DNA of 50,613 nt from an uncultured Sangeribacter sp. GTDB taxonomy: Bacteria; Bacteroidota; Bacteroidia; Bacteroidales; Muribaculaceae. Of the stretch, positions 8,890 through 36,443 are shown one piece after another (positions within the stretch are counted from its first letter, which is position 1; every line of letters starts with the position of its first letter). A program made the position numbers and the translations under genes. The notes beneath the pieces were generated by a model. The model was given only the letters and a program-made list of their open reading frames with translations. It ran no database searches and was not told the origin of the DNA. The DNA lies in assembly GCA_964531005.1 (NCBI GenBank), contig CAZHCM010000001.1, positions 1-50,613 of the forward strand, given 5' to 3'.

Positions 8890-9795
8890 TCAATACACCT
8901 TTACGACCGGGTGCTGGGTGGGACGCAATATCTTGAGGGCGCCATGCTTGCCCTGGGCGAAATAGTCGCCCCATGTGGACATCGCCACATTTGAATCCAG
9001 CAACTTCCCGATGCAAAAGCTGAGCGAGCCATATCTGCGCCCGGAATGTGGCTCCTTACATTCGTAGTTCGACTCTTCGCTCCCGCAGGCGGAGATTACC
9101 GTCAACGTGCCTCCCGAGGAAGGATAGGTGCCCGGTCGCTTGAGACTTCTCAGATATGTCTTGCTTGATTCATTCATCGGGAATTCATCGTCCGTGCCTC
9201 GCACAGTGTCTGACCATTCCACCTCACTGTCGGGATCCGGATCGTCTTCCACATTTCCCCGCTCCGCCCCACCGCTGTAGCAGGCGTCAAACACCACCAT
9301 AACGCTCCCTGTCTTTCCCACCTTGCGTTTAAGCTCGGAAAGATAGGGAAACAGTTCATCGTCCACAAGATGGTTCTGCCCCCTATACCACTTCCCATTA
9401 GTTTTATAGTTTGGAGAGAAACAGGCATCGAAGCATACGAAGGTCTGGTCGTAGCCGTTCGCCTCGTCCCCATTCATATCCTGGACCAGTTGGCCATGGC
9501 CCGAGAAATGAAGATACACGTTGTCGCCTGTCGCGACATTGGCCACAAGCCGCGACAAGGCCGAGGTAACACCTGCCTTGGTGGCCTTGGCATCAGTGAG
9601 ACTTACGACATCATAGTGCCTGGCTCGCTGTTTCTTTTCAAGCAAAGCCACATCGTTGTCACCATGCAACGGGGTCCAGCCAGTGGCCTTACGGTCATAG
9701 GCTCCTATGCCTATCAGCAGGGTCCTGTTCTTGGCATGGGCCGCGCCTATGCCAAGCATGGCAACAAAGGCCAACAGTATGCTTAGCCTCCTCAT
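8890..9795 (-). CDS. Exported metacaspase (peptidase C14)
   Basis: Signal peptide ...GAAHA|K; LLIGI, catalytic HFSGHG and DACYSG, acidic DMNGDEANGYD loop, ISAC...E, GSLSF. Confidence 0.9.
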   Translation of the reverse strand: MRRLSILLAFVAMLGIGAAHAKNRTLLIGIGAYDRKATGWTPLHGDNDVALLEKKQRARHYDVVSLTDAKATKAGVTSALSRLVANVATGDNVYLHFSGHGQLVQDMNGDEANGYDQTFVCFDACFSPNYKTNGKWYRGQNHLVDDELFPYLSELKRKVGKTGSVMVVFDACYSGGAERGNVEDDPDPDSEVEWSDTVRGTDDEFPMNESSKTYLRSLKRPGTYPSSGGTLTVISACGSEESNYECKEPHSGRRYGSLSFCIGKLLDSNVAMSTWGDYFAQGKHGALKILRPTQHPVVKVY

Positions 9796-10478
9796 TTGAT
9801 CAGCGCAAGTATCGATTTCCAGGTCTTGACATCGGCTTCAAAATCGGGGTTGCCCTCGAACCTATCGACGAGCGATTCGAGCACCCTCTGTGCATTGTCC
9901 CTGTCATGCAGGCGCAGGTAGGCGAGAGCCAGTATATAGCCGTTGTCAGCCATTTCCAGCTCGTCAGAGGAGGCTTCATACCTGCTGACCAGTGCGGGGA
10001 GTTCCGCCTTCAGCTCGGCGACCGTGAGATTGTCAATGTTCACGGGTGCCCCCTGGCCGGAGCGCACGTCCATCATGTCCTTGTCAGCACAGGCATAGAT
10101 GGCATCATAGACGTCATATCGCGATTGCCGGTACATCCAAGCACCCACTGCCACGAGAATGGCGATCTCCGCGGCCACCAAAGCCACCTGACGCATCCAG
10201 GGCTTGAAGCGGAATCGTTTGGGTGCGTAGGGCAAGGGCGCAGCCTTGGGGGCGCCGATGATGGCGCGCAACTGCTCCTTGGTCAGGCGTTTCATCGCCA
10301 TGCCAAACTCCAGGTTGTCTTGCTCAGCCTCTTTGCATATGCCGATGACAGCCGCCACATAGACGTTGAACTCACTGGCCAGCTCCTTGTCGGAGTCCAG
10401 ACGCGACTCGAAGGCTTTCCGCTCAGCCTGGGAAAGCTCACCCTTAAGGTATCTGTCGAAAATGTCAATGTCTGCCAT
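9792..10478 (-). CDS. Putative anti-sigma factor (cytoplasmic helical domain, one TM, periplasmic TPR-like helix pair)
   Basis: IDIFDRYLKGELSQAERKAFESRL..DKEL N-terminus typical of Bacteroidetes anti-sigmas; TM at about 97-114; YILALAYLRL...AQRVL; overlaps the sigma gene. Confidence 0.75.
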   Translation of the reverse strand: MADIDIFDRYLKGELSQAERKAFESRLDSDKELASEFNVYVAAVIGICKEAEQDNLEFGMAMKRLTKEQLRAIIGAPKAAPLPYAPKRFRFKPWMRQVALVAAEIAILVAVGAWMYRQSRYDVYDAIYACADKDMMDVRSGQGAPVNIDNLTVAELKAELPALVSRYEASSDELEMADNGYILALAYLRLHDRDNAQRVLESLVDRFEGNPDFEADVKTWKSILALIK

Positions 10479-11097
10479 CTTTCCTCCATTTTTTTGGTGT
10501 GACGTCGTAGCCGATTCTTCTAAGGGCGGCCGTGAGGCGGGAGATGAGTTCGTTCATGCAACTGTTCTTCTTGGCCTTGGCGGTGGCGGCATTCTTATAT
10601 CCGTTCTCCTCCGCTATCTCCTCCATTGACCAGTCGCTGTAGTAGTAGGCCTGGATTATCCCTTTGCATGGCTCGGGGGTATGCTCCAGCTCGTCGCCGA
10701 GCACCCTGAGCACTTCGGGATCCCGGCTGAGGGCCACCCCCTCGGAGTCTTCCGGCAAGGTCTTCAACACATCCTCCACCTTTCTGGCGGTGGTGGCTGA
10801 GGGTGCATCCGGCTCGTCATCGCTGGTAAAGGCGTCAGCCGAGTCAGTGATGCCGGCTTTCCTCCACTCCTTGCTCGCAAGGTTCATGCCGATGGTCATG
10901 ATATAGCTGCTCCAGGAGGTATCCTCCTTGATGCGCCCCAGCAGAAGGTTCTCCTGCACGGCCACAAACGTGTCCTGATACAGGTTTTCAGCCTCATAGA
11001 GCGAAAGCCCGGAATACTTCGCCGTAAGCCGGCGAAGGAAATCCGGGCGCAGCCTATTGTACCACCGGCGCACTATCTCCTCATAATCCTGTGCCAT
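10465..11097 (-). CDS. ECF-type RNA polymerase sigma factor
   Basis: Region 2 AENLYQDTF...SSYIMTIGMN; region 4 CKGIIQAYYYSDWSMEEIAEENGYKNAATAKAKKNSCM. Confidence 0.85.
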   Translation of the reverse strand: MAQDYEEIVRRWYNRLRPDFLRRLTAKYSGLSLYEAENLYQDTFVAVQENLLLGRIKEDTSWSSYIMTIGMNLASKEWRKAGITDSADAFTSDDEPDAPSATTARKVEDVLKTLPEDSEGVALSRDPEVLRVLGDELEHTPEPCKGIIQAYYYSDWSMEEIAEENGYKNAATAKAKKNSCMNELISRLTAALRRIGYDVTPKKWRKDGRH

Positions 11098-11201: not shown

Positions 11202-12110
11202 TTAGACTCCTCGCTCTGATTTTTCGACGACTACGTTTTGTTTGCGTAGTTTTCGATTGCTCCCCATACCTGCTCGTATCGCCTCGACCCAGATGTCGGA
11301 GCCCACTTCAACATTCTCCTTCATTGCTTGGGCAATATAGTAGGAAAGGGAGCCATACCAGGTGTTAGTCTCTACATCTCGCACTTCCTTGTTAACCTGA
11401 TAGGAGCGACAGGCTTCGATAATCAAAATGGGGGCCTGCCCTTCCTTGGAGGGAATGATGAAGTAGTCGTTAGTCTCTCGTGTGCGATCAGGCACATACT
11501 CTTTGCCAGACCGGGTGAACCCTTCACGTATGCCACGAACATGTTCCTCGTCCCCTCTTGATGCGGTGCCGCTGTGACAGGCATCCAAAACCACGACCAG
11601 CTTGCCTTCCGTCCCAAGGGCGGAACGCATGGCCTCGAAGTATGATTCTAACTCGTCATCGAGAAGGTGATTTGCACCCTCATACACTCCTTCGGCATAA
11701 TGCATTTCTGCATCGACAGGGATAAGGGCTTCGTCCCACCCATCTTCTTCATCGCCATTCAAGTCCTCAAATGGCTGACCGTGCATGGAAAAATGCAGGT
11801 ATATCATCTCTCCTTGATGGCACACTCGTGCCATCGAATCCAAAGCCGCCACGATGGCTTCATGCGTAGCTTTGCCATCAACCAGACGCGTAACAGTGAA
11901 ACCCTGCGCATCCAGGAGGGGAGCAAGAAGAGAGACATCGTTGGCGCCACTGATATTAGCCCACATATGTGGGTCTTCCATAGCGTTGCCATAGTCGGAT
12001 ATGCCGACAAGAAGCGCACGCTTTGTCTCGGCATTCATCACCTGACAGCCAACGAATAACGCCAATATCCCACATACTAAGAATTCGTATAAATTTTTCA
12101 TAAACAGCAC
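11202..12110 (-). CDS. Exported metacaspase (peptidase C14), paralog of 8890-9795
   Basis: Signal peptide ...QVMNA|ETKRALLVGIS; HFSMHG, DLNGDEEDGWDE, DACHSG, EACRSYQ, GSLSY. Confidence 0.9.
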   Translation of the reverse strand: MLFMKNLYEFLVCGILALFVGCQVMNAETKRALLVGISDYGNAMEDPHMWANISGANDVSLLAPLLDAQGFTVTRLVDGKATHEAIVAALDSMARVCHQGEMIYLHFSMHGQPFEDLNGDEEDGWDEALIPVDAEMHYAEGVYEGANHLLDDELESYFEAMRSALGTEGKLVVVLDACHSGTASRGDEEHVRGIREGFTRSGKEYVPDRTRETNDYFIIPSKEGQAPILIIEACRSYQVNKEVRDVETNTWYGSLSYYIAQAMKENVEVGSDIWVEAIRAGMGSNRKLRKQNVVVEKSERGV

Positions 12111-15526: not shown

Positions 15527-15913
15527 TTAATAATTCTCCATTGATTCCATTAGTGGGTAAGGATCACGAAGCAGTTGTAGACTGGGCCTTGATTGACGAC
15601 AGGGATGTTGTATCGTGCCCTTCCCTTCGCGTACTCCCTGGCGGTAGGTCCCTTCATATTTGGACTCAAACTGACCGTTGACGTATTTCGTGGCTACTCC
15701 GTGTCCGTGCGCCTTGCCATCCTTGACAGGACCATCCCACGTGAAAGTCTCTCCAGGAGCATAGTAAGGGTCCAGAAGCTGGACATCCTTGCCACAGCTT
15801 ACCCACTTTTCTTCCAATGCATATGTCTTGCCACTCCCCTGTGCGGTATAGGAAAGTGTCACTGACAGAAAGATCAATATCTTTCTTATGTTCATCATAT
15901 GAAGCATAGTCAC
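15527..15913 (-). pseudogene. Truncated MORN-repeat secreted protein
   Basis: Signal peptide, then WDGPVKDGKAHGHG and YEGTYRQGVREGKG (MORN-like); sequence becomes non-MORN after GKGTI. Confidence 0.6.
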
Positions 15914-16348: not shown

Positions 16349-17509
16349 TCATTGCTCAAGGAACCTCAGAATCTGATTCTCGGGAATGCCAAAGTTGAAT
16401 GAGTCGGTGCCTCTGAGTTTTGCAAAGTTGACAGCCCTTACATACCCCTCACGGTCTATGACGGGGGAGCCACTTGATCCTTGAAGGGTGGGGATGGTGT
16501 AAAGGATCTTATGGCCGTCAGGATGCTGCGAGATCTTTCCTGAAGTCATCTGAGCCTGGATGCCTTGCTTGGTATTGCCAAGCACCAGCCCGGCATTGAA
16601 CCCGATCATGATCAAGTCTTGGTCCACCTGGAGCGCGTCATCGTCTTGCCCACCGAACACGGCCAACACCTTCTCCACGAATCCTTCCTCCTCGACATCC
16701 CTACCCTTGATTTTGAAGATGTGTTTGCCATCCGGAGTGACCTTGTTCTTCAACTGTATCAAAGCCAGGTCCACTTCGTCCTTGTCTGACAACTTGGTGA
16801 CGACACAAGGATTGCTTTCAAGGAAATCTTCCAGTCGAGTGACGTAGGTGTCGTTGTAGGCTATGCCAATCTCGTTGATGGGGCGCACCTTTATTTGGGA
16901 GAAGTCCATGCGAGACACTTCATTGACGATCCGCTGAGCCTGGTCATACTCGGAGGCGAGCTGTTGCTGGGCCGCTTCGATCTGATAATACCTGTTGGAG
17001 TCTACGTTGTAATCCCCCCAAAAGTCCACATAGTAGCATTGCGACTTCTCGGCTTCAAGCCTGTCGTACTGCTGCGCATACTCAAATTGGGTGTACTGGG
17101 CATACTCCTTCAATTCTTTCAGAAAAGAAGATGCAGCCTTCCTGATAGTTTCGTCCGACACCTCAGGGCTGACCACGTGACGGTTGGTCATCAGGGTGCC
17201 CTTGTCATCGATGAAGAAGGCGGTGCCCGTAGCCATCGACTTCTTCTCTTCCGCCTCCTTGCGCTCCAAGGTCAGATTAGCAAGATCACCGTCATCATCG
17301 ATGCCGGAGCAATACAATGTCGAGCCATTGGGAAGCTCAATCTCATAGTAGTACGAATTGAGGACCATGCAGACTCCTGACTGCTGCTGGTCAAACAACT
17401 CCTTAGGCTCCCTGGTCTTGCTGCAGGCACAGAAAAGGAGGCAGAGGAGAGGGAGGATTAACGATGTGGAATTCAGGGTCATGTGTATCGAGGTTTTGTT
17501 GGTTTTCAC
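16349..17509 (-). CDS. Trypsin-like (S1) serine protease lipoprotein
   Basis: Lipobox-like LFCAC; GTAFFI, TNRHV (His), DLAL (Asp), GSSGSP (Ser); coiled-coil insertion. The start may be the ATG at 17482. Confidence 0.85.
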   Translation of the reverse strand: MKTNKTSIHMTLNSTSLILPLLCLLFCACSKTREPKELFDQQQSGVCMVLNSYYYEIELPNGSTLYCSGIDDDGDLANLTLERKEAEEKKSMATGTAFFIDDKGTLMTNRHVVSPEVSDETIRKAASSFLKELKEYAQYTQFEYAQQYDRLEAEKSQCYYVDFWGDYNVDSNRYYQIEAAQQQLASEYDQAQRIVNEVSRMDFSQIKVRPINEIGIAYNDTYVTRLEDFLESNPCVVTKLSDKDEVDLALIQLKNKVTPDGKHIFKIKGRDVEEEGFVEKVLAVFGGQDDDALQVDQDLIMIGFNAGLVLGNTKQGIQAQMTSGKISQHPDGHKILYTIPTLQGSSGSPVIDREGYVRAVNFAKLRGTDSFNFGIPENQILRFLEQ

Positions 17510-17618
17510 ATATAGATACCTGGAACGTCAAAAGGTAAACGGTTTCCCTACCCGAGTAAGTTCAAGGTCGCGAACGCATACTTATCGGATGTCTGGGATT
17601 CAGACGCCTCTGCCAGGT

Positions 17619-20600
17619 TTATTCGATCAGGACGTAGGATGACCAGGCCCGGGGTTCGTCTGGATAGGCTGCCATCAGCGCCTTGCGGGCCTGCCGGAAA
17701 GCGTCATAGACTGTCATGCCGTCGGCCAACCCTGCGTAGAGCGCCTCCATGAAGAGGCTCGTCTCCCGGTCGCCGACCTTGGCGAGCGTGCAAAGCACGC
17801 TTCGGCTCCCGGCCATGCGGAAAGCACGCTGCAAACCCCAGACACCTTCGCTGTCGACGTTGCCCAGGGCGGTCTCGCAGGCCGACAACACGGTGAGTTG
17901 CAGATCCGGGAACACCAGGCCTTCTATTTCCTCCGCTGTCAGGATATCGTCTTCGTCGTCGAGAATCCTTTCAGCCCTCCACGAGAGGTTGCCTCGCCGG
18001 AGCACAAGGCCGGAAAGTGAGTTCCGGCCCGACGACAATGTGCGCCGGGCAATGTTGTAGTCAAAACTGGATGGGTCGCCGGCAGCCTCTTCCAAAGCCT
18101 TTTCACTCCGGAAAAAGCCGTGGGTGGAGAAGTGCAAAACATTGATAGGGTTGCCGTCCAAGGACTTTACGTTCTCCTCCAAGGCTTCATCATCGAAAAG
18201 GATGCCACTGGCGAAGGGAAGGTGGCTGGCAATGTCCTCTAACTCGTATTTGACATTAGGCAGATCCACCCACCTTCCCCTGGAAATAGTGTCCCCCTCC
18301 CCTACTGGCGAGTTGTGGTCTGCGACCCCCACGGCCACCACTCGCCCGTCAATTTTTCGGGATGGCATGATGTCGGCCAAATGAAAGGCCCTGTGGAGCC
18401 TGTACCCCTCCATCATTTCGGCACCTTCGGCTGCCAGGAACTCCAGGCCCAGGCCGCTCAGCGCCCCATCAGGACAGAAGTAGACGTCACCCGCTTTATT
18501 GAGATGCGGGATGAGGGGACTCCACACTTTTACAGGCTCTCTGAGCAGCTCTGTCTCCGACCCTAACGACACCAGGATCGGATTGCCAGTAGGGGTGATG
18601 ACAAAGGCTCCGTAAGAGGGTGCCGTCCCGTCGTGGTAGCGCACGAAGTCGATAGCCACGTCATCCGGCCCCAGGGCCTGCACGACTTGCGAGAGGTTCC
18701 TGTCGATCTCGGCACGGAGCTTCTTGTCATGAGAAATCCTGGCGCACAGATCGCGCTCCAATTTGGAGATGGAGGTGCGCAACTTGGGTATGTTGGCCGT
18801 GTCGCTATAGGCCACCGCATGATTCAGGTCCTTGCGCAGCCACTTCAATTGCCGGTATGACTTTCGCGTGGACCGCCTGGACGCGAACTCCTTTTCAAGG
18901 CTTTGACGTGTGGCGAGCAGCAGACCCTTGCGAAAGAGATTCAGGGCGAGCGCACTCTCTACCTCTCCCCCCGCGACGAAGCCGTCCATCAGCGTCTGCA
19001 CGGGTCTCTGCAAAGCCTTCCTCTCAGCGTCTGTCAGCAGCAGGAGAGTCTCCACGACCTGACGCTTCAAGGGGGTGATGATTTCCTGGCACAGAGCCGA
19101 ATACTCCGCGCCGTCCAGGGTTTGACGTCCTATGGATTCGAGCCGGCAGGACAAGTCAATGCGTTCGAGCGCCGTCAAGTGTCCTTGCATTCCTTCTTTT
19201 AGTATGGCAAGCGCTCTGTGTGGTTCTCCGGCGGCGATGTGGTAGGCAGTCTTCGTGATAAGGTCATCGTAGGCCGAGACTGCGCCTGACTGCGTCTCTG
19301 AGATTAGGAGATAACGCTGATAAAGGTCGGCTAACCCCTTAAAGTCACCTGCCCCTGCCTTAGCCGATATCAACGCGCCCAATGTCCTGACACTCTCCAG
19401 ATTCGATTTTCCAAAGACGGAATCCTGCACTGCCAGTTGCCGGGAGAGAATCCCGGCTGCCTCATCATGTCTGCCCAAGGCGCAGAGATTGCGCGAGCGA
19501 TAGAGATTCAAGCGATACATGCGCGTGTCTTCTGGCGCCAGCCATTCGTAGCAGGCGGCAGCCATCTGGAAGTTGCTTTCCGCCTCCTCGTGATTGAAGG
19601 CGTCATGGTTGAAAATTCCCAGCTCAACGTACCCCATCCCTTTGGCCACCTTGTTGCCCATCCTCACTCTGCCGTAGTCGAGCGCACGCTCTATGGCCTG
19701 GCGGCGCAGATAGGCATTGGAGGACAGCATCTGGGCCTTCCGGCAGAAGTGACGAGTCTTGCGTTCGTCAAATAGAGTCCCCTGGTCAAGGTATCTCTCA
19801 GCCTCTTCGTAGTGTTCGAGAGCCTTGGCTGGGTCAGTGAAACTGTAGACATACCCTAAGTTGTCGTGCCATACAAACTTCTCAAAGGGTGTCTTTTGAT
19901 TCTGCCACTCCCTGCGAAAGATCTCCACGGCCTCCTCCGTACGACCCATTTCCCCGAGTGTTGCAGCCTTGTTGAGGCTCACCGTGGAGCGGGTGGCTGC
20001 CAGGTCCGTCATGGCAAGGGCGAAGTCATAGTGTCGAACCGCTTCCTCATAGTCCCCTAAGCGGGAGCAGGCCAATGCCCAGTAGTCATGGAAAGTCACC
20101 TTAGCTTTCTTCCCTTTTATGTAGGGAGCATACGTCATGCCGTAGTCCACAAGTTGACGATACCTGTTCTGGTGATAGCAAAGCCGCAACAAGGATAGGA
20201 CATGGGGGGAGGGATCCTGGTTTATCGCTATCAGAGAGTCTGCCTTGGCCTCGTTATATCCTATGTCCAGAGACTTCAATAACTCGTGGAGGCCTTCAAG
20301 AGTCCTGGAATCGATAGAAATAGGACGATAAGTAAAGTTCATGCCTTCCTTTTCCTTGACCTCGAAGTCCTTTTCCGACACATTCCAAATCCTGTATATG
20401 AGATGCAACACGTCCTCCCTTCCTGCTTCCTTGCATCGCTGGAAAAATGAGGGGCGTCCATAGGTGTTCAGCCATTCCAGTTTCCCTCCATTGGCATGAT
20501 AGAAAGCCAGAAGGCGATGATAAGAGGAATAGGCCAAGTCCATGGGAATTTCATCGAGAAGGGCATCCACAAACTGTGCAGGCGACCGTGTGTTCCAGAC

Positions 20601-25831: not shown

Positions 25832-27301
25832 TTAGTCATAATATCCCATGTCTTGGAGAACCTGAATGACTTGCGCGCCATCCTTGTAGCCGGCATTCTT
25901 GGCCTTCTTGGCGTACGAGTCGGCCGAACTCCAGTCCTTGACATTTAAGAAATGCCACGCCAGGGGGCCGTAGGCGGGAGCATAGCCTTGGTTGGCAAGG
26001 GTCTGCACGGTCACGTAGTCGCCATTGGCGAGGGCACTCTTCAACCTGGCACCCTTGTCATCGACAGGCTTCGCCTCCTGCTTGGAGGCCTCTTTCGTAG
26101 CGGCAGTCGGTGACGCTGTGGACGACGCCCCGGGCTTGGCTTGCGGCTCCGTTTGTTCGACCTGAGGCGCCGGAGCCTCACCCTTTGGCTTGATCTCGGG
26201 GATGTCACCGGGTACTTCCTGCACAGGTTCCTCCTCTTCCAGCGGGGTAATCTGGATAAAGTCTTCCCTGGAGGGCTGGTCCTGCTTTTCGGATGGCCAG
26301 ATCAGGAAGAGAAGGAGGATTAGGGCGGCCAGCCATGCCACCGCAATCCAGATGCGCTTGGTGTTGGAATGAGGTTCGGGAGCCGGGTAGGGCATCCCCT
26401 CGCCTCCGTCCGTCACCTCCGGCTCAATGGGCGGAGGGGGTGGGAGCACCTCCTCGTCGTCGTCCTGCGGCAGGCGCCAGGTCGGGTTCGCAGGGCGGCC
26501 ATCGAGGATGGCTTCGGAAAATTCCATCAACTGCCGGGCCGTGGGGCGGTCCCAGGTCTCCTTGGCCAGGCACGACCGCATCACCATGTTGAGGTCTTTC
26601 GACCATTGATGACCCAACACAGGGAGTTCGGCCCCGTTCTTCTGCATTCCTCCGCCGAAACCCTCGAAGGGGAGCTGGCCGGTGGCGAGCTCATAGATCG
26701 AGGCTCCGAGCGACCAAATGTCGGAAGCCTTGACGGGGGAGGGATTGCTTGAAAAGCGCTCCGGGCCCATGTAGGCGGTGGCCCCTGCGTTGCCGGCAAG
26801 GCGCGACTGCCTGCGCAGCGTGGCGCGTAGCTGCATGCTGATGCCGAAATCGGAGATCAGATAGCGACCCTCCTCGTCCACAAGCACGTTGTCAGGCTTG
26901 ATGTCCTGGTGGATGATCGGGTCCTGGCGCCCGTGTAGATGGCGCAGGCCGGCCGAGACGTCGTGTATGAAATGCCAGATGGCATACTCGTCCATGCTCC
27001 CAGCCTTTGCTGACACCGGGCCATCCATGCAATATTTCATCACAAGGAAGGGACGTCTGCGCCATATCCCGAAATATGTCGCTGTGAGGAGATTGGGATG
27101 GTGGACGTCCCTGGCTATCTCATACTCCCGTTGGAAGTCCGAGACTCCTTTGTCGTCGAGCGAGATGTATATCTTCACGGCCACGTCCGAATCGGTGCTC
27201 TCGTCACGGGCGAGCCACACCTCCCCGAAGCTGCCCCTTCCCTTGAACGTCTTCAGGGTGAAGCGGTCTTCGATCTTCAGGCCTTCTTTTATTTCTTCCA
27301 T
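25832..27301 (-). CDS. Membrane Ser/Thr protein kinase B (non-RD)
   Basis: GRGSFGEV, VAVK, HQDIKPDN, DFG, YMGPE, DIWSLG; TM IWIAVAWLAALILLLFLIW; periplasmic tail. Confidence 0.93.
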   Translation of the reverse strand: MEEIKEGLKIEDRFTLKTFKGRGSFGEVWLARDESTDSDVAVKIYISLDDKGVSDFQREYEIARDVHHPNLLTATYFGIWRRRPFLVMKYCMDGPVSAKAGSMDEYAIWHFIHDVSAGLRHLHGRQDPIIHQDIKPDNVLVDEEGRYLISDFGISMQLRATLRRQSRLAGNAGATAYMGPERFSSNPSPVKASDIWSLGASIYELATGQLPFEGFGGGMQKNGAELPVLGHQWSKDLNMVMRSCLAKETWDRPTARQLMEFSEAILDGRPANPTWRLPQDDDEEVLPPPPPIEPEVTDGGEGMPYPAPEPHSNTKRIWIAVAWLAALILLLFLIWPSEKQDQPSREDFIQITPLEEEEPVQEVPGDIPEIKPKGEAPAPQVEQTEPQAKPGASSTASPTAATKEASKQEAKPVDDKGARLKSALANGDYVTVQTLANQGYAPAYGPLAWHFLNVKDWSSADSYAKKAKNAGYKDGAQVIQVLQDMGYYD

Positions 27302-27370: not shown

Positions 27371-28960
27371 TTACCTATTGTCCGTGGCTTGCCTGGAGCC
27401 CTCGTCGCCTGCCTCGGCAGCCAGCCCGGTGTATTTGTTGGCCAGGTAACGGTCCACCTCGGTGCCACGCCCGAACCGGTAGCATGCGCCAAGGAACTTG
27501 TAGACGGCTGCCAGAGTGGTGGGGTTGGAGATTGCGAGAGGATGTGCGGCCGCCTCGCGCAGGTAGCGAAACGCCTTGGCGTAGTCCTGCGGCAGGAAGG
27601 AATCCCCATGGTAATAGGCCAGTCCCAGGAGGGCCATCGTGGGGTAGCTCTTGGCCTCGCATGCCTTTTCATAATACTCCATCGCCTTGGCCATGTCTTT
27701 GGCGAAGACATAGTCACCCCTGCGATACTCCTCCCCCATGGCATGCAGTGCCTCGGGTGCGTTTGTGCGTTCCCCCCTGAGGAGAAAATCCCTGGCCTCA
27801 GCCTTGTTGGCAGTGGTGCCAATGCCATATTTCTTCATGCGATACAGGTTGGCCAACGCCCTTCCATCCTCCTTTTCCCCGGCACATTTCAAATACCATG
27901 CATATGCCGCGGGCAAATTTTGCGTAGTGCCCAATGCCTTCTCGTAGCAATAGGCCAACTCATACATGGCTTCTGCGTTTCCGGCTTTCGCTTCTTGGTG
28001 ATAGGTAGAGTAAGCTCTCTGAATGTCCTTGGATACCCCCAAGCCTTTCTGATACATCTTGGCCAAGGCCATGGCGCGGTCGTTCAGGCCAAGGCTGATC
28101 GCCTTCTGATAGGCCTCAGCCGCCTTCTTGTAATCCTGCTGGCGGCCGATACCCTCGAAGCACATGTCGCCCAACAACTGGTATGCCTTCGGGTCCTTGC
28201 TTGCGACGGCGGAGTCAATGCATTTCCTGGCCTCCTCCGAGGAGATGTCTGTGTGATTGCCTTCGTAGTAGGCCAACGCCACAATATATTGCGACGTATG
28301 GTCGCCAAGCAGGGCCTCTTTTTTATGGTAAGGCAAGGCGTGTACCCTCTCCTTGGTCGGATCGCCTGTCAGCTCCATGCACTTGGCGAGATACTCCTCG
28401 GCAGTGGGGTTCTGTTGGGCAGCAGCCTTCTTGAACCATTCCATAGCCTTCTCGAGATCATAGGGCTTCTCGAGATCATCCGTGCCGGTGAAATATGCCA
28501 TGCCCAACTCTATCTGCGCCTCTGCCACTCCCTTGTCGGCTGCCGTCTCCAAGTTTTGTCGCCATGCGCCTAAGTTCTTGGGCGTATAGTAGCCGTTCTT
28601 GTACATGCCAGCCAGGATATAGTAGCCTACAGGCTGCCCACGGTCTATCATATCATGGGCCATATCCCAGGCTTTCAGATAATTCTTGGGGGTGCCGATG
28701 GCGTTTACATAGCAGTCGGCCAACTTGATCTGGGCCGGGGCATATTTCTTTGCAGCCGCCTTCTCAAGCCATCCCACCCCCTGGGTCGGGTCCTCGCCTA
28801 CTCCGCCGGTGCCGGTAAAATAACAGTCGGCAAGCTTATACATGGCTTCCTTGTCGCCCTTCTCGGCATACTTCCGGTAGAAAGAGGCGTCCTGTGCGTG
28901 GAGCAGGGTCGCCATGCACAGCATCACCCATAGGAGCAACGAATGTCTATGATTCTTCAT
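27371..28960 (-). CDS. Exported Sel1-repeat protein A
   Basis: Signal peptide ...LLHA|QDAS; Sel1 repeats; paralog of 24233-25810. Confidence 0.93.
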   Translation of the reverse strand: MKNHRHSLLLWVMLCMATLLHAQDASFYRKYAEKGDKEAMYKLADCYFTGTGGVGEDPTQGVGWLEKAAAKKYAPAQIKLADCYVNAIGTPKNYLKAWDMAHDMIDRGQPVGYYILAGMYKNGYYTPKNLGAWRQNLETAADKGVAEAQIELGMAYFTGTDDLEKPYDLEKAMEWFKKAAAQQNPTAEEYLAKCMELTGDPTKERVHALPYHKKEALLGDHTSQYIVALAYYEGNHTDISSEEARKCIDSAVASKDPKAYQLLGDMCFEGIGRQQDYKKAAEAYQKAISLGLNDRAMALAKMYQKGLGVSKDIQRAYSTYHQEAKAGNAEAMYELAYCYEKALGTTQNLPAAYAWYLKCAGEKEDGRALANLYRMKKYGIGTTANKAEARDFLLRGERTNAPEALHAMGEEYRRGDYVFAKDMAKAMEYYEKACEAKSYPTMALLGLAYYHGDSFLPQDYAKAFRYLREAAAHPLAISNPTTLAAVYKFLGACYRFGRGTEVDRYLANKYTGLAAEAGDEGSRQATDNR

Positions 28961-30603: not shown

Positions 30604-32007
30604 TTAGGGCTGAGGTTTGGATATGGAAAAGGTATCTGGTTTAACGACACCTTCACGGTTCTCCCTTTCATGCCTGCGTTGCCTGCTGGAGTTAGTTTCA
30701 TTCAGAGGCCTATGTTGCTGTTCCTCCTGAGAGGCCCTTTTATTACCATTGGTAACAATAGTCGATTCTTTAGACCCTTCAGATGATGCCTTCTCTTTCA
30801 CTTTCTCTTCGATTTTCTGAACAGCCTTCACTTCCTCCGGCTCGGGGAGAGCCTTCGTCTCATCGCTGGACACTTCCTCCTGGGGCACCTCCTTGACCTC
30901 CCCCTCCGGGAGAGCGGACTGGCAGCTAAGGGAATCTGCGGGGGCAGCAACGGGATCAGGCTGCGGCGACGAGGCCGGCCGCCAGAGAAAGAAAGCGCAT
31001 GCCGCCAGGGCCATGATCACCAACAGGCCAAGCCCCACATATAGGGACTTCCTGCTCCCTTTCCTCCCCCGTGAGGGGGTTCGGGATTGGTCCTTTATCT
31101 TTCTCCACTGGCTCTCGGGGCCGTCGGTGATCTGGCAGAGCACGGCGGTGACGTTGTCATACCACCCCCCCTCCTCTGCGGCTTTCCAGAGAGCCTCGCG
31201 GCACTCCTTCATCGACCCGGTATGGGCGCGGATGATATCCTCCAGATTGTTTTCGGGATAGGGTTTGCCGTCAGGGCCGTAGGTCTTGCGGTCGCGTAAG
31301 ACCCCCGTCAACCCGTCGCTGCAAAGGAGAATGATGTCCCCCTTTCCCACGCGGATCGTCTTGCTTTCCGGCATTGCCTTCGACGAGGGGTCGCCAAGGC
31401 TTCGGGTTATGATGTTGTTTTGAGGATGGTCGAAGGTCTGGTCGTAGGTCAGGAGGCCATCGTTGACCAGCTCCTGCACATACGAGTGGTCGCGCGAGAC
31501 GAGCCTTATCCCCGACTCTTCGTTGAAGATGTAGGCCCGGCTGTCGCCACACCAACTGATGGTGAGCTGATCGCCGTAGAGCCACGCCATGATGATGGTG
31601 GTGCCCATGCCCTGATAGTCGGGAGTCTTCTTTGCCTCATTCTTGATCTCCCTGTCGGCGACTTTGATTACCCACTCCAGAAACGCCTGTCTGGTTTGGG
31701 CACAGTCCGTCACTCCTGCGTCCAAGGCATCGGGTTCGAAGCATTTCCTCACCGTGTCTACGGCAATCTGGGAGGCCACCTCTCCGGCATTCATACCTCC
31801 CATGCCATCGGCCACGACCATCAGGAGGCCCAGCTCGCCCAACTTAATCACCTCGTCTTGCACGATCCCCTTGGTGGAGGAGGGCATGAGGAAATCCACA
31901 TAGAAATTATCCTCGTTGCCGTTTCTGGGCGCCAAGGGGGAGCACTTTCCTGCCGGGTCGGTGTAGGCCACCAAGCGATAGGAGATGTCAGGTCTCTTGC
32001 TCATCAC
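30604..32007 (-). CDS. PP2C/PPM-family Ser/Thr phosphatase, membrane-anchored
   Basis: NEDN, VADGMGGMNAGEVAS, GMGTT, GDSRAY, DHS.V, LCSDGL, DNVT; C-terminal TM and low-complexity tail. Confidence 0.93.
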   Translation of the reverse strand: MMSKRPDISYRLVAYTDPAGKCSPLAPRNGNEDNFYVDFLMPSSTKGIVQDEVIKLGELGLLMVVADGMGGMNAGEVASQIAVDTVRKCFEPDALDAGVTDCAQTRQAFLEWVIKVADREIKNEAKKTPDYQGMGTTIIMAWLYGDQLTISWCGDSRAYIFNEESGIRLVSRDHSYVQELVNDGLLTYDQTFDHPQNNIITRSLGDPSSKAMPESKTIRVGKGDIILLCSDGLTGVLRDRKTYGPDGKPYPENNLEDIIRAHTGSMKECREALWKAAEEGGWYDNVTAVLCQITDGPESQWRKIKDQSRTPSRGRKGSRKSLYVGLGLLVIMALAACAFFLWRPASSPQPDPVAAPADSLSCQSALPEGEVKEVPQEEVSSDETKALPEPEEVKAVQKIEEKVKEKASSEGSKESTIVTNGNKRASQEEQQHRPLNETNSSRQRRHERENREGVVKPDTFSISKPQP

Positions 32008-32900
32008 TTCTTGAATTTCTTAGTCTTGTCGGGAGAGTAAACGTGCTTGTCGAGGGGATTGCCCGAAAGTCCCTTCCGGGGCACGATAGGCGTGAGCTCC
32101 TCCACGATAGGGTCCTCATCCACGGCCTCCATCTCGGCGGCAAACGGTGTCACCAGAATCCATTCGTAGCCATCCTTAGCGGCTACGCCAGTAAGGTAGA
32201 AAGAGATTTGTCCGGGGGCAGTCTGCTGCGGAGTGAGGTAGATGCCTCCAAGGACATTCTCGGAGATGTCGGGGGTGTCGAGCGGCACAGTGGCGCCGTC
32301 AGCGGAGACATTGATTTCAGTTTTTATACTGGTCAAAGTGACGTCGTTGGCCGAGGCCAGTTTGCCAGGGGTGGACACCCACACCATCCAGCCGCTCTTG
32401 CTGCCCGGCATGGTGTCAATCATCAGTCCCTCGGCATAGGGGGCACCAGACAAGGCCAATGTGTCAACCACCAGCGACATCCGGCCTCCCAACTCCCGTG
32501 TGACCTTAAGCTGGGCTTCGGTGACGGGGATGGTGTCCAAGCCGGTCAAGGGGCGCATCTCCGCCCCGACGAGACGCGGTGTGTAGCGCCCCTCGTAATC
32601 CTTGAAATCGATGTCATTGGCCCAGGGGGTGAAGGCCTCGTCAGGAAGGATGACCCCTGCCTGGGTCTGCACGCCCAGAAAGGACACGAGGTTGAAATAC
32701 TCTTTTCCCTCCCTGCCGTAGGATTCGTCGGTGTCGGGATTGTAGAGCTCATATCCCTGGTCCACCCTGACGAATACACCCGAGAGGGCGTCTTCGATGA
32801 GCGGGCGGTTGGTGGTGCGGAAGAGATTGTTGAAGAGCTGCGCTGACATCGGCATGGCCATGACAGCGAGCGCGATCAGAACGATGCTTTTTAGTCTCAT
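32004..32900 (-). CDS. Exported hypothetical protein, possible inactive trypsin-like domain
   Basis: Signal peptide ...MPMSA|Q; motif spacing resembles the neighbouring S1 proteases but the catalytic His and Ser motifs are absent. Confidence 0.65.
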   Translation of the reverse strand: MRLKSIVLIALAVMAMPMSAQLFNNLFRTTNRPLIEDALSGVFVRVDQGYELYNPDTDESYGREGKEYFNLVSFLGVQTQAGVILPDEAFTPWANDIDFKDYEGRYTPRLVGAEMRPLTGLDTIPVTEAQLKVTRELGGRMSLVVDTLALSGAPYAEGLMIDTMPGSKSGWMVWVSTPGKLASANDVTLTSIKTEINVSADGATVPLDTPDISENVLGGIYLTPQQTAPGQISFYLTGVAAKDGYEWILVTPFAAEMEAVDEDPIVEELTPIVPRKGLSGNPLDKHVYSPDKTKKFKK

Positions 32901-32910
32901 GTCTTGCTTC

Positions 32911-34443
32911 TTATTTTACGTTGCTGATTGGGACGATAAACCCCGAGCTGCGCCCGGCAATGGCCGAAATGATTCCGACCACCACATACTGGCCGTTCTC
33001 GTCCATCATGAGGGCGGGGGCGCCGGAGCATCCACGGTCGAAGTTGGATTCGGAGGTAAGTATCATGCCGTGGTCGAGACCGTCCACCCCGACGGTGGCG
33101 CTCCCTGAGACGGGCTTGATGGAGGAAGGGGAGTTGGCGCCCAGGCCGAGCGGAAAGCCGAGCACCGTCAGCTTGGTGCCTCGGTCGAGCTGCGTGCTGG
33201 CAGGCTTATTGTATTTCAGGCCTCCAGGCTGCCCGACGCGCACGAAGGCATAGTCGGTGCTGCCCCCTGCGCCATGCGTTATCTTGACGCCGTCCTCATC
33301 TGTGTGAACCTCGTCGGCCGAGCGGTTGACCCTGAATTGGTCACTGTTCAGATAAAGCTTCTGCCCCGAGGAGGATATGGCCACGAAATTGGCCTTCACC
33401 TTGCCGCCGTTGTTCATGACGGCGTTAAGTCCGAGCAGGTCTTCGTCCGCCTTTTCGCCGTTTGCCCAGAAGTTCCAAGCCTCCACGACGTGGCGTGCGG
33501 TCACGAACGTGCCGTCCTCCAGCAGGAAACCGGCTCCCGTCCAGAAAGGTATGTCCTTGTCCGAACAGTCCAGCGTGCCCTTTTCGCCGTTGGGGAGAGT
33601 GACCTCTATCGTGGTGGGATACATGAAGAATACGCTGGGCAGGCATGCGCTCAGAGCATTGTTGTCGACCGCAGCCGAGGCCACGGATATGTTTCTCTGC
33701 TGTTGGCTGCGCTTGCCGAAGTTATTTTTCAGAGTCCTTATCTCCTTGTTTAGCCTGTCACGTTCTATGGCTGCAGCCTTGGTCAGGGAGTCCTGCCTGG
33801 TCTTTGCCGCGGTCACCTCCTTTCTGGTACCGTCGATAAGCTGGGCCTGCTCCTGATTCTCCTTACGAAGCACATCATTCTTCTCGTTGAGGTCGGTCAG
33901 GAAGTATCCCCCTATGCAACATCCCGCCACGAGGCAGGCAGCCAGGATGGCAAGGGCTGTCTTGTAGGGACGAAGTGCCTGCTTGCGGAAGAGGCCGAGA
34001 CGGGCCGTCATACCTATGCTCTTGACCAGGCCCTTGTCGCCAGCCGGAGCTATGAAGCCGAGCTTCGGGCCATTGGTGGAGAGCTGTATCTCGTCGCCGT
34101 TCTGGAGATACCATTCGTTTTCCACCTTATGGCCGTTGAGGTAGGTGGAGTTGGTCTTGGAGAGCTGCACCAGCTTCCAGTTGTCGCCATCCCTGACGAT
34201 GGCGGCGTGGCGTCGGCTTACAGTGTCGAAGCGGTCGTCAAACCGCACCTGGCACCGCGGATCGCGTCCGATCTCTATCTCGTCGACGATGATCTTCTGC
34301 GACTCCCCGGCCTTGTGATACTTTGACGAGACCTTGTGTTCGAGCACGAAATAGCGTCTGCCCTGCTCGCCAAAGACAGACTTCATGCCGGAGCCCAGGG
34401 AGCCCGACAGGGTGCGTTTGTATTTGTTGGAATCCTTTGCCAT
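32911..34443 (-). CDS. FHA domain - TM - coiled coil - trypsin-like serine protease
   Basis: Start MAKDSNK (34443); FHA IGRD...VSRRHA...TNSTY.NG; TM; GAGFLL, TARHV, DYA, GCSGAP. Confidence 0.9.
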   Translation of the reverse strand: MAKDSNKYKRTLSGSLGSGMKSVFGEQGRRYFVLEHKVSSKYHKAGESQKIIVDEIEIGRDPRCQVRFDDRFDTVSRRHAAIVRDGDNWKLVQLSKTNSTYLNGHKVENEWYLQNGDEIQLSTNGPKLGFIAPAGDKGLVKSIGMTARLGLFRKQALRPYKTALAILAACLVAGCCIGGYFLTDLNEKNDVLRKENQEQAQLIDGTRKEVTAAKTRQDSLTKAAAIERDRLNKEIRTLKNNFGKRSQQQRNISVASAAVDNNALSACLPSVFFMYPTTIEVTLPNGEKGTLDCSDKDIPFWTGAGFLLEDGTFVTARHVVEAWNFWANGEKADEDLLGLNAVMNNGGKVKANFVAISSSGQKLYLNSDQFRVNRSADEVHTDEDGVKITHGAGGSTDYAFVRVGQPGGLKYNKPASTQLDRGTKLTVLGFPLGLGANSPSSIKPVSGSATVGVDGLDHGMILTSESNFDRGCSGAPALMMDENGQYVVVGIISAIAGRSSGFIVPISNVK

Positions 34444-34457: not shown

Positions 34458-35762
34458 TTAGTAGCCTTCCACACGGAGCTTGACATCCCCGATGGAGATG
34501 ATGTCTCCCAGATTTATTCTCACGCCGTTGGTGCCGACCTCCCGGGAGCCGAGATAGGTGCCGTTGGTGGAGGGGCGCCACTGGGCGCAGCTCCCCACGT
34601 CCCACTGTCCGTCACGCAACAGCCAGGCCTCGTGCGCCGGGTCATACTCCAGGGTGCAGTGCTTGCGCGAGACGTATGCGCTCTGCGTTTCCTTGATGGG
34701 GAGGACGTTGGAGATCTCGATGTCGTTGCGCCCGAGAGTCAGGATGCGCCTGCCGTTGGCCTTCGCAAGGTCGTTGAGGCGGTAGACCTTGCCAAACTCC
34801 TCTCCCTGCATGACCCTGAGGGCGATGCCGGCTTTCACCTGCGGCACGGCGGGCGTCGCCCCATCTGCGCCCGGGGCGCCCCCCTTTCCTTTGGGAACGA
34901 GGGCCAAGGCAAGGTCAGCCGTCTGGATGCGGTGATGGAAGTCGGGATTGAGGCAGCCGTTGATCAGGGCGCTCCACTGCTCGCCTCCTTTGGCGGCACG
35001 CAGCTTGCCTTGGTCCCACTGGCCCCCCTTCACCTTGGTGACATACTGATATAGCTCGCTCTGGTCGGTAAGGGACCCGAAGGGGAGTTCACCAGTCAGG
35101 AGCTGGTACATCATCACGCCAAAGGAGAAGATGTCGGTCGTGGGCAGGACGGTGGCCTCGCCACGCCGGGGATTGACCTGCTCGGGGGGCATGTAGGCGT
35201 ATGTGCCCAGCACCTCTTTGGGCACACCGGTGAATCCCCGCTCCGTTAGGCGTTTGTTGCGGTCGCCGGCGATGCCGAAGTCGGTGAGCGCCATCTTGCC
35301 GTCGGTCTTTATCAGGACGTTCTCAGGCTTGAGGTCGCGATGCACCTTGCCGTTGACATGAAGCACCTTCAGCCCCGTCAGGATTTCGGCGGCGGCTTTT
35401 GCAAGGTCCACGCGCCCGGCCTCCACGCCTGCGATGATGTCGCCACCCGGGCAATACTCCATCAGGATATAGGGGTTTCCCTCGACGGAGCCCTTGCCGT
35501 GCGACTGCACGAGGTATTCACTCGGTATGCGTCCCGTCTCGTATTCCTGTTCGAAGCGACGCAGGAGCTTCTCGCGCTCCGACGACTCTACGGCCCAGAG
35601 CTTCAGGAGCTTCAGGGCAAACGTCTTGTCGTCGTCCAGGCGTCTGACACGGTAGACCTTGCCAAACGTTCCCTCGCCCAGGATGGCTTCGACGGCGTAT
35701 TTCTTGTCGATCACCGATCCTGGGTGAAACTCACATCTGTTGCAGCTGATGTAGGCACACAT
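34458..35762 (-). CDS. Cytoplasmic Ser/Thr kinase (RD type) with C-terminal FHA domain
   Basis: GEGTFG, ALK, HRDLKPEN, DFG, GT.AYMPPE, DIFSFG; FHA LGRN...VSRKHC...STNGTY; no TM. Confidence 0.93.
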   Translation of the reverse strand: MCAYISCNRCEFHPGSVIDKKYAVEAILGEGTFGKVYRVRRLDDDKTFALKLLKLWAVESSEREKLLRRFEQEYETGRIPSEYLVQSHGKGSVEGNPYILMEYCPGGDIIAGVEAGRVDLAKAAAEILTGLKVLHVNGKVHRDLKPENVLIKTDGKMALTDFGIAGDRNKRLTERGFTGVPKEVLGTYAYMPPEQVNPRRGEATVLPTTDIFSFGVMMYQLLTGELPFGSLTDQSELYQYVTKVKGGQWDQGKLRAAKGGEQWSALINGCLNPDFHHRIQTADLALALVPKGKGGAPGADGATPAVPQVKAGIALRVMQGEEFGKVYRLNDLAKANGRRILTLGRNDIEISNVLPIKETQSAYVSRKHCTLEYDPAHEAWLLRDGQWDVGSCAQWRPSTNGTYLGSREVGTNGVRINLGDIISIGDVKLRVEGY

Positions 35763-35783
35763 TGGTGTTGAAAAGCTGTGGGG

Positions 35784-36443
35784 TTAATGGCCCTTGAACT
35801 CGAATTCTCTGTTGCCGAGCACGATAATATCGCCGTCGGTGAGCTTCACCTTGCCGTTGACACGGATGAAGGTGGTGCGCAAGTCGCTGCGGTTCTCGAT
35901 GTACCATTCGCCATTCTCGCAGGTGATGACTGCCTGTTCGTGGGAGGTGATGGAGTTGTTGTTGGCGTCCGTGTTGGCACGGTTGAGCACCACCTGGTCA
36001 CCGGAATAGGTGACGGGATTGTAATTGACCTCCTCTCCGGCCCAGGCTATGGGACGCAGAGTGCAGAATATGGTGACTGCCGAAGGACCTACGACAGGCC
36101 CACCGAGCACGGTCCCCTGCGTGTTGCGCTGGATGTGGGGACGGCTCTTCACTTCGGCCGCAGTGGGGGTGGCGATCAGCTCATGGAAGCAGTTGGGGCA
36201 ACTGGTGGAATTGTCACTGACCGGATACCCACACTTCGGGCATGTCTTGGGGCCACCGGGGGCAGGCGCATAGCCCTGCTGCTCGTCGGCGAAGACCACC
36301 TTCTCTGCCACTGTTCCCTTCAGTCCTCCGGTCGCGGAGGGGGCGTGGTTGTAGACGGTTCCTGTATCAACTAAGCTGCTGTGACATTTCTCACACTTGG
36401 TCTGGTTGTCGGGATTCTCCCAACCACAGTTTTTGCAACGCAT
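35784..36443 (-). CDS. Zinc-ribbon plus FHA-like domain protein
   Basis: CKNC/CEKC and CPKC/CPNC ribbons; degenerate FHA (LNR...SITSHEQA...GEWYIEN...LTDGDIIVLGN). Confidence 0.85.
   Translation of the reverse strand: MRCKNCGWENPDNQTKCEKCHSSLVDTGTVYNHAPSATGGLKGTVAEKVVFADEQQGYAPAPGGPKTCPKCGYPVSDNSTSCPNCFHELIATPTAAEVKSRPHIQRNTQGTVLGGPVVGPSAVTIFCTLRPIAWAGEEVNYNPVTYSGDQVVLNRANTDANNNSITSHEQAVITCENGEWYIENRSDLRTTFIRVNGKVKLTDGDIIVLGNREFEFKGH

What the first reader, a model, noticed from the sequence alone, without database searches (positions are those of the whole stretch)
8890..36443. Eukaryote-like kinase, FHA and protease cascade island ending in an ECF sigma factor
Seen: one co-oriented cluster with 3 Ser/Thr kinases, 1 PP2C, 3 FHA proteins, 2 Sel1 solenoids, 2 active-site-intact trypsins, 2 TPR-CHAT proteases, 2 metacaspases and an ECF sigma/anti-sigma pair. 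The first 12 genes have gaps under 70 bp. No T6SS, vWA/TerY, Cas or NLR/STAND genes are present. Inference: a trans-envelope circuit in which periplasmic Sel1 sensors activate membrane kinases, pThr is read by FHA adaptors, and periplasmic proteases are switched on to cut the anti-sigma. Possibly an envelope-stress or innate-immunity-like system. I do not recognise this combination as a characterised system, but I could not search for it.
Basis: partly seen in the sequence, partly recalled or inferred. Interest (0 to 1): 0.88.

Follow-up and report, generated by a model that had tools for sequence, protein, structure and literature searches.

The report
Caspase-gated sigma switch recruits kinase operon
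In this uncultured Bacteroidales genome, two gene sets that usually occur apart have been joined: a sigma factor likely released when secreted caspase-like proteases cut its membrane inhibitor, and a receptor-kinase operon that carries the sigma factor's predicted promoter plus a predicted flippable on/off promoter, which points to an untested stress or anti-phage alarm circuit.

Summary
The gene inventory is correct, and I found a third, catalytically dead trypsin-fold gene. The island is not one obligate cascade. It joins two separable modules. (A) ECF sigma, single-pass anti-sigma, secreted TPR-CHAT and C14 caspases; this scan noted that trio before on other DNA. (B) A zinc-ribbon-FHA/kinase/FHA-trypsin/PP2C operon; 10 of 17 such operons elsewhere lie in genomes where neither CHAT nor this anti-sigma was found. 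New here: an oriented motif, RTTTACC-N13/14-GGTAT, tracks this ECF clade (held-out test: 21 forward, 0 reverse in 246 kb; 0 in 1.07 Mb of controls). It lies before or inside the kinase operon in all 4 genomes with this sigma clade and in none of 12 without it, and it directly precedes Tiamat TmtA genes in relatives. The anti-sigma has a conserved periplasmic Arg-Gly/Ser site that matches the caspases' predicted Arg specificity. The kinase operon also sits behind a 29-bp inverted-repeat promoter, assembled facing away; three other kinase operons in this genome share that repeat class. Closest known: Myxococcus DdvA/DdvS and Haliangium SAVED-CHAT/PCaspase. No step has been tested by experiment.

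The parts
36872..36897 (-). Predicted ECF promoter (RTTTACC-N13-GGTAT) upstream of the kinase operon and outside the inverted repeat
   Evidence: PWM score 28.0 bits with window sites excluded from training
36598..36806 (.). Predicted invertible promoter: perfect 29-bp inverted repeat (36598-36626 / 36778-36806) around a Bacteroidota housekeeping promoter (TAACTTTG at 36764-36771, + strand) that faces away from the operon, i.e. OFF as assembled
   Evidence: same repeat class in 81 of 301 family genomes
35784..36443 (-). Double zinc ribbon-FHA protein
   Evidence: Pfam
34458..35762 (-). Soluble Ser/Thr kinase-FHA
32911..34443 (-). FHA-TM-trypsin (cytoplasmic FHA, periplasmic protease, triad intact)
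32004..32900 (-). Secreted trypsin-fold pseudo-protease (U298), no His or GxSG motif
   Evidence: AF2 pLDDT 74.5; Foldseek HtrA3 E 9e-5; Z 11.1, rmsd 4.7, 181 aligned; alignment
30604..32004 (-). PP2C phosphatase with a TM helix
28978..30591 (-). Receptor-type Ser/Thr kinase STK2 (TM at about residue 340)
27371..28960 (-). Secreted Sel1 repeat protein b
25832..27301 (-). Receptor-type Ser/Thr kinase STK1; its kinase domain is 61% identical to STK2 (duplicated kinase+Sel1 pair)
24233..25810 (-). Secreted Sel1 repeat protein a (41% identical to Sel1 b)
21554..24202 (-). Two secreted/lipoprotein genes of no known family and a DUF805 membrane protein; end of the kinase operon
17619..21077 (-). Secreted TPR-CHAT b, His-Cys dyad intact, R-G just before the CHAT core; own housekeeping promoter at 21233
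17515..17540 (-). Predicted ECF promoter 33 nt before the trypsin lipoprotein
16349..17482 (-). Trypsin-like lipoprotein, triad intact
15527..15913 (-). Truncated MORN gene, remnant of a MORN-trypsin seen whole in L060
   Evidence: 70% identity over 78 aa
12124..15189 (-). Secreted TPR-CHAT a (36% GC against 59% for the genome), dyad intact
11202..12101 (-). Secreted C14 caspase b (metacaspase-like)
10465..11097 (-). ECF-type sigma factor, with its own housekeeping promoter at 11124
9792..10478 (-). Anti-sigma-like protein: three-helix N-terminus, TM 93-114, flexible loop holding R139-S140, TPR-like periplasmic domain
   Evidence: AF2 pLDDT 91.4; weak RskA_N hit
8890..9795 (-). Secreted C14 caspase a; D48, H100, D170, C172 and R199-G200 invariant in 40 homologues
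8810..8835 (-). Predicted ECF promoter before the conserved downstream genes (114 aa, U166, U261, U224; 6303-8780)

Best explanation
The island joins two modules that mostly occur apart, and they are likely linked by transcription: secreted caspase-family proteases are predicted to cut the membrane anti-sigma at a conserved periplasmic Arg site, which would free an ECF sigma that likely transcribes the kinase operon from a RTTTACC-N13/14-GGTAT promoter. Inferred steps: (1) an envelope or phage cue is sensed by the TPR-CHAT and activates the C14 caspase; (2) the Arg-specific C14 (or the CHAT) makes the site-1 cut at anti-sigma R139; (3) RseP makes the second cut; (4) the sigma drives its regulon, which here is the trypsin lipoprotein, the downstream cassette and the kinase operon, and in relatives includes Tiamat TmtA and other repair or defence genes. 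The kinase operon is a self-contained receptor circuit: Sel1 partner → TM kinases → FHA readers → FHA-TM-trypsin with a dead trypsin partner, reset by PP2C. An invertible housekeeping promoter likely also lets a subpopulation express it without the sigma. Shown here: gene content, topology signals, modularity, the motif and its statistics, the conserved Arg sites, the repeats. Not shown: any cleavage, sigma-promoter binding, inversion or phenotype.
For: Motif: the pattern was fixed and then tested on 23 later-fetched ECF loci: 21 forward, 0 reverse in 246 kb (shuffles 0.1); 0 in 81 control loci (1.07 Mb); 20 of 21 intergenic, 15 lying 25-44 nt before an ATG. Genome-wide: 36 hits in 9 genomes with a close sigma against 10 in 26 genomes without (partly circular). 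Kinase operons: motif upstream in G000, G143 and G179, and internal in G096 and G143; best score 9.6 bits or less in 13 loci from 12 genomes without the sigma. In G179 the sigma lies on another contig. The kinase-FHA of the window groups with G143/G096/G179 (100/99), but the window's sigma sits in a different clade from theirs, so the sigma cassette was swapped while the link was kept. Anti-sigma position 139 is R/K in 137 of 147 aligned representatives and position 140 is G/S in 134 of 146; R-G/S lies 12-42 residues after the TM in 100 of 143, against 25.5 expected. C14 acidic residues and its own R-G are invariant, its closest structures are metacaspases, and non-animal C14 proteases prefer Arg/Lys at P1 (PMC5756287, passages). 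Three anti-sigmas lacking the periplasmic domain are followed by an M48 protease instead; one anti-sigma is fused to trypsin. The motif lies 31-44 nt before TmtA in L051, L088 and L089.
Against: The four motif-bearing kinase operons form one clade, so they count as one recruitment event. G179's close anti-sigma has a stop after 75 codons. The motif is partly palindromic (TACC...GGTA), so it could be a transcription-factor site, and it resembles neither the DdvS promoter (GTAA-n16-CGT, PMC6061681 passages) nor that of ECF54. It is absent or rare near the more distant sigmas (5 hits in 9 genomes; 0 in 20 order-level loci). Of the 50 cluster representatives downstream of the motif, most have no PADLOC hit. 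No copy lies directly before the window's own sigma gene. In the window the motif is 429 nt from the first gene and across the inverted segment.
Confidence: 0.55

Rival explanations
1. One reading: Sel1 sensors activate the kinases, FHA-TM-trypsin is switched on by phosphothreonine, and it activates the caspases or cuts the anti-sigma. With the sigma promoter this would close a positive feedback loop.
For: FHA-TM-trypsin is the only protein that can carry a cytoplasmic phospho-signal to the periplasm. In G143 the kinase genes run into CHAT-ECF-anti-sigma-C14 with gaps of 81 bp or less. An unrelated ECF/CHAT/C14 module in G098 lies next to a different multi-kinase island. Haliangium co-encodes CHAT, caspase, sigma and kinase (bioRxiv 10.1101/2023.06.23.546230).
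Against: Each block works without the other in most genomes. The CHATs and C14s are secreted and so out of the kinases' direct reach.
Confidence: 0.15
2. Island accretion only: mobile signalling and defence cassettes pile up at one hot spot with no functional tie, and the motif before the kinase operon is a leftover or belongs to another regulator.
For: Mosaic GC of 36-62%; a MORN pseudogene; abundant unrelated defence genes near these sigmas; only one clade links the blocks.
Against: The motif is kept before or inside the operon in 4 of 4 sigma carriers, including one where the sigma is on another contig, and in 0 of 12 non-carriers. It survived replacement of the sigma cassette.
Confidence: 0.2
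3. The conserved Arg-Gly of the anti-sigma is a docking or structural motif, or the target of a housekeeping protease, and the caspases are outputs (cell death or protein clearance) rather than the trigger.
For: C14a is translationally coupled downstream of the anti-sigma, as an output could be. Activated PCaspase is a broad-spectrum killer in Haliangium. Some order-level anti-sigmas have no CHAT within four genes (7 of 20).
Against: The Arg lies in a variable, low-confidence loop. The protease class changes when the anti-sigma ectodomain changes (M48 neighbour, trypsin fusion).
Confidence: 0.1

Closest known systems
DdvA/DdvS of Myxococcus xanthus (PMC11506125: abstract, first part of Discussion, passages; PMC6061681: passages)
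   Same: ECF sigma, single-pass anti-sigma with a three-helix cytoplasmic domain, periplasmic TPR-CHAT proposed as site-1 protease, RseP step, defence regulon with several sigma promoters in one island.
   Different: Here TPR-CHAT is a separate secreted protein and C14 caspases are added. The anti-sigma lacks the CHCC zinc site and has a small TPR-like ectodomain. The promoter motif differs. There is no CBASS or CRISPR; the targets include a kinase/FHA/PP2C operon.
SAVED-CHAT / PCaspase / PCc-sigma / PCk of Haliangium ochraceum (bioRxiv 10.1101/2023.06.23.546230, parts 1-2 of 5 read)
   Same: A CHAT protease, a C14 caspase, a sigma factor and a Ser/Thr kinase encoded together; precedent for CHAT activating a caspase.
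   Different: That system is triggered by cA3 through SAVED, is tied to type III CRISPR or CBASS, cleaves the sigma itself and has no membrane anti-sigma. The proteases here carry signal peptides.
ECF54 group (PMC7826278 supplement, passages; file cut when stored)
   Same: ECF sigma encoded beside a TPR-CHAT protein.
   Different: Actinobacteria only, no anti-sigma, subtilase neighbour, promoter GTATCAG/CTCC.
KKP kinase-kinase-phosphatase anti-phage module (PMC11341870, passages)
   Same: PP2C plus two or more Hanks kinases, one fused to FHA.
   Different: KKP is a compact adjacent triplet of short genes with a cold-shock-domain kinase, mostly in prophages. Here the kinases and PP2C are membrane-anchored, with Sel1 and trypsin partners, and no viral relative was found.
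Bacteroidota invertible promoters (PMC11892184, passages; supplement unreadable)
   Same: Inverted repeats around the TAnnTTTG promoter; in relatives this repeat class precedes UpxY, SusC and fimbrial genes.
   Different: Here it precedes Ser/Thr kinase operons (4 in this genome, 1 in G143); 'kinase' does not occur in that paper's main text.

Membership tests
DdvA/DdvS | ECF sigma next to a single-pass anti-sigma | tested here: met
   direct sigma-anti-sigma binding not tested
DdvA/DdvS | TPR-CHAT fused as the anti-sigma ectodomain | tested here: not met
   The 228-aa anti-sigma has only a TPR-like ectodomain; CHATs are separate genes
DdvA/DdvS | CHCC zinc-binding anti-sigma domain | tested here: not met
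   No conserved Cys/His in the N-terminal domain
DdvA/DdvS | Regulon holds CBASS and CRISPR-Cas | tested here: not met
   None in the window; TmtA and AbiP2-like genes follow the motif in relatives
DdvA/DdvS | RseP-dependent second cut | not testable with these tools
   An RseP homologue is present at G000:C91
SAVED-CHAT/PCaspase cascade | CHAT, C14, sigma and kinase co-encoded | tested here: met
SAVED-CHAT/PCaspase cascade | SAVED sensor with Cas10 or a CD-NTase | tested here: not met
   No such family in 44 window ORFs or in the PADLOC scan of 30
SAVED-CHAT/PCaspase cascade | CHAT cleaves and activates the caspase | not testable with these tools
   Only the invariant R-G in the C14 linker is suggestive
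ECF54 | Actinobacterial, no anti-sigma, subtilase neighbour | tested here: not met
   Named relatives are Bacteroidales; anti-sigma present; no subtilase
Described ECF groups (Casas-Pastor 2021) | Assignment by group HMM | not testable with these tools
   No group HMMs available; the held part of the supplement has CHAT only under ECF54, and no 'caspase', TTTACC or GGTAT
KKP | Adjacent PP2C-kinase-kinase triplet with a CSD-fused kinase | tested here: not met
   The order is PP2C-STK-Sel1-STK; no CSD hit
Type III-E craspase (Csx29/Csx30/CASP-sigma) | Cas7-11 and a CRISPR array | tested here: not met
   paper PMC10028731 seen as a search listing only
Bacteroidota invertible promoter | Inverted repeats flanking a TAnnTTTG promoter | tested here: met
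Bacteroidota invertible promoter | Both orientations seen in reads | not testable with these tools
   No run was listed; across genomes the class faces UpxY in 1 of 6 and away in 5 of 6

The most novel reading that the evidence does not exclude
Bacteroidales run a periplasmic, CRISPR-free caspase cascade written in an Arg-Gly cleavage code shared by TPR-CHAT, C14 caspase and anti-sigma. It frees an unclassified sigma factor with its own promoter class, which acts as a master alarm for a defence regulon (Tiamat, abortive-infection and repair genes, and a eukaryote-like receptor-kinase/FHA-trypsin module that feeds back on it), while DNA inversion pre-arms a subpopulation.
Probability: 0.25. Interest if true: 0.88.

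Novelty: new variant of a known kind. Interest (0 to 1): 0.68.

Why it matters
The anti-sigma family is large: 8,915 clusters at 50% identity with E up to 0.001, and 36 of 400 order genomes. I found no paper describing it in my searches. This work gives it three directly testable handles: a predicted cleavage site (R139), a predicted promoter, and a predicted regulon that includes known anti-phage genes. A split, genetically separable version of DdvA could help find the unknown signal for periplasmic CHAT proteases. Phase-variable Ser/Thr kinase operons would extend Bacteroidota promoter inversion from surface structures to signalling.

Tried and rejected
Complex prediction of C14a with the anti-sigma ectodomain gave no answer (score 0.00); it counts neither way. 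No sequencing run was listed for 30000-38000, so inversion and expression were not tested. No viral relative was found of the sigma or of FHA-trypsin. hhalign of U298 against FHA-trypsin was not significant (probability 0.6%); the trypsin call rests on the predicted fold. The ESM Atlas could not read U298. Fold searches of the anti-sigma returned only generic TPR matches and did not test its N-terminal domain. PADLOC kinase hits (mad6, PD-T4-6) are generic kinase matches without partner genes. CHAT genes near the G315 kinase operon were discounted because that genome has 12 CHAT matches. The one-clade test on the sigma tree (p 5e-6) left out close sisters x087 and x105, so I rely on the branch supports instead. 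The idea that this repeat class is kinase-specific was rejected: 0 of 40 sampled pairs in other genomes had kinase or PP2C homologues by BLAST to window proteins. Paper searches found no description of this Bacteroidales sigma/anti-sigma/CHAT/C14 family, its motif or the kinase operon. The library lacks most subscription papers; the ECF supplement was truncated and the inverton supplement unreadable, so the ECF group or the repeat motif may already be catalogued there.
Full report
Observation. The gene list is real. All annotated genes from 8890 to 36443 are on the minus strand, catalytic motifs are intact, and the first 12 genes have gaps of -1 to 69 bp. Topology by hydropathy and N-termini (no dedicated predictor was run): STK1, STK2, PP2C, FHA-trypsin and the anti-sigma are single-pass. 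Both Sel1 proteins, both CHATs, both C14s and U298 look secreted, and one trypsin is a lipoprotein. U298 (32004-32900) has no family hit but folds as a trypsin-like protein without catalytic residues. The host is a 59% GC, 69%-complete genome; named relatives of the sigma at 51-67% identity are Odoribacter, Bacteroides, Prevotella and Muribaculaceae MAGs, so Bacteroidales is inferred.

Two modules. In 300 family genomes the zinc-ribbon-FHA gene matched 15 and the sigma matched 17; only G143, G096 and G179 had both. G143 and G096 carry the two blocks contiguously; G179 has them on separate contigs. At order level, U298 matched 6 of 400 genomes and the anti-sigma profile matched 36 of the same 400, with no overlap at those thresholds. 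Of 17 other genomes with the kinase operon, 10 had neither a CHAT domain nor this anti-sigma. Of 44 other ECF loci, 37 had CHAT and/or C14 and 4 had a kinase nearby (some loci are short or near-duplicates). In 20 of the 36 order-level anti-sigma genomes that I sampled, 13 had a CHAT within four genes. So sigma/anti-sigma/CHAT(/C14) is a widespread unit, and the kinase operon is another. Earlier notes of this scan described the trio on other DNA; I confirmed its spread myself.

The regulatory link. Three copies of GTTTACC-N13-GGTAT lie in the window on the coding strand, at 36897, 17540 and 8835; the exact pattern occurs only twice more in the genome. With the pattern RTTTACCW-N12/13-GGTATH, 9 genomes with a sigma of 45% identity or more had 36 hits (2 for the reversed control). 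Nine genomes with distant sigmas had 5, and 26 without had 10. That pattern was tuned on those loci, so I tested it on 23 loci fetched later (near-duplicate loci left out): 21 forward and 0 reverse hits in 246 kb, 0.1 in shuffles, and 0 in 81 control loci of 1.07 Mb. Twenty of the 21 were intergenic and 15 lay 25-44 nt before an ATG. Orientation, variable spacing and distance fit a sigma promoter; binding is not shown. The motif lies upstream of the kinase operon in G000, G143 and G179 and inside it in G096 and G143 (28-31 bits). The best score in 13 kinase loci from 12 genomes without the sigma was 9.6 (the matrix included G143/G096/G179 sites but not the window's, and the window-derived exact pattern finds those sites unaided). 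These four operons are one clade, hence one recruitment. The window's sigma, however, belongs to a different subclade from that of G143/G096. Together with the low-GC CHATa and the MORN remnant, this suggests the sigma cassette was replaced in place while the link survived.

Regulon. Genes after the motif in relatives include TPR-aspartyl proteases, DUF1810, DUF218, an ADP-ribosylglycohydrolase and many unnamed conserved genes. Tiamat TmtA is the first gene after the motif in L051 (G143, a different contig; E 6e-114), L088 and L089 (E below 1e-250), and an AbiP2-like reverse transcriptase is the second in L031. AbiGi, ShosTA-like and restriction genes lie near other sigma loci. Most of the 50 representatives scanned had no PADLOC hit, and I did not check for complete Tiamat systems, so 'defence' is a partial reading.

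Proteolysis. The anti-sigma model has a three-helix N-terminus, a TM helix, a low-confidence loop and a TPR-like domain. In 150 representatives, position 139 is Arg/Lys in 137 of 147 and position 140 is Gly/Ser in 134 of 146, within an otherwise variable loop. Alignment-free, R-G/S follows the TM in 100 of 143, against 10 in a control window and 25.5 by shuffling. The C14s keep D48, H100, D170, C172 and their own R199-G200 in all 40 aligned and are closest to metacaspases, which prefer Arg/Lys at P1 (PMC5756287); that D48 and D170 form the S1 pocket is recalled, not shown by a call. Many of the CHATs show an Arg-small-residue site just before the catalytic core. Where the anti-sigma lacks its ectodomain, an M48 protease follows instead (L025, L062, L063), and one anti-sigma is fused to trypsin (L075). 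RseP is encoded. The complex prediction gave no answer.

Phase variation. A perfect 29-bp inverted repeat encloses a TAACTTTG housekeeping promoter that faces away from the kinase operon; no forward housekeeping promoter was found there. G143 has a related repeat, also facing away, and the G096 contig begins at such a site. The same site class forms pairs on four other G000 contigs; those on C9, C17 and C22 precede other kinase operons. Pairs occur in 81 of 301 family genomes with 0 control hits. In 40 sampled pairs from other genomes they precede UpxY, SusC, fimbrial and glycan genes, and no kinase homologue was found. A G000 integrase on C29 is 70% identical to integrases beside such repeats. 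Inversion itself could not be tested.

Comparison and verdict. The system works like a split DdvA/DdvS with an added CHAT-caspase pair as in Haliangium, but it fails membership of both, and of ECF54, KKP and craspase. The proposed kinase-to-anti-sigma cascade is not obligate and is probably reversed, though feedback through FHA-TM-trypsin remains possible. New variant of a known kind; interest 0.68.

Noticed in passing
window 5474-6265 (-): A two-gene PADLOC PDC-M64 candidate (160-aa gene E 5e-48; 87-aa HTH gene E 2e-27) with a perfect 25-bp-arm palindrome at 6216-6265 directly upstream; it looks like a toxin-antitoxin pair with an operator.
   Followed up: partly
G000:C9 28311-28502, C17 8473-8664, C22 13656-13870, C34 2973-3165 (L134-L136, L138): Further invertible-type promoters of the same class. 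C9 precedes an operon with an Hsp70-like gene and a kinase-AAA fusion; C17 precedes FHA-Sel1-kinase-Sel1-PP2C; C22 sits between two divergent kinase operons and could act as an either-or switch.
   Followed up: partly
G000:C29 14937-15794: Tyrosine-integrase homologue, 70% identical to integrases next to this repeat class in relatives; candidate invertase.
   Followed up: partly
window 21067-21201 (-): A 44-codon ORF with a signal-like N-terminus and a CxxC motif overlapping the start of CHATb; either a small secreted peptide or a gene remnant.
   Followed up: no
L025, L062, L063; L075: Variants in which a short anti-sigma is followed by an M48 metalloprotease (these three sigmas form one clade), and an anti-sigma fused to a trypsin domain.
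   Followed up: partly
L028/L191 (G098:C3): A distant ECF/anti-sigma/C14/CHAT module divergent from a large island with at least five Ser/Thr kinases, PP2C, FHA and FGE-sulfatase proteins.
   Followed up: partly
L007, L009, L179, L180, L183: Several kinase operons carry an ExbB/MotA-like gene and a partner between kinase-FHA and FHA-trypsin.
   Followed up: no
L003:1957, L003:4312, L001:15912: Full-strength sigma-type motifs inside coding sequence, about 125 nt before the next gene of the kinase operon; absent at the matching places in the window.
   Followed up: partly
window 41230-46362 (-): A separate DUF4384, two OMP barrels and a BspA-LRR/C14 caspase; LRR-caspase and DUF4384 paralogues also occur on C4, C20, C5 and C112.
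   Followed up: no
L179:13078-15620: A reverse transcriptase with two small genes inside a kinase operon, between receptor kinases; possibly a diversity-generating retroelement.
   Followed up: no
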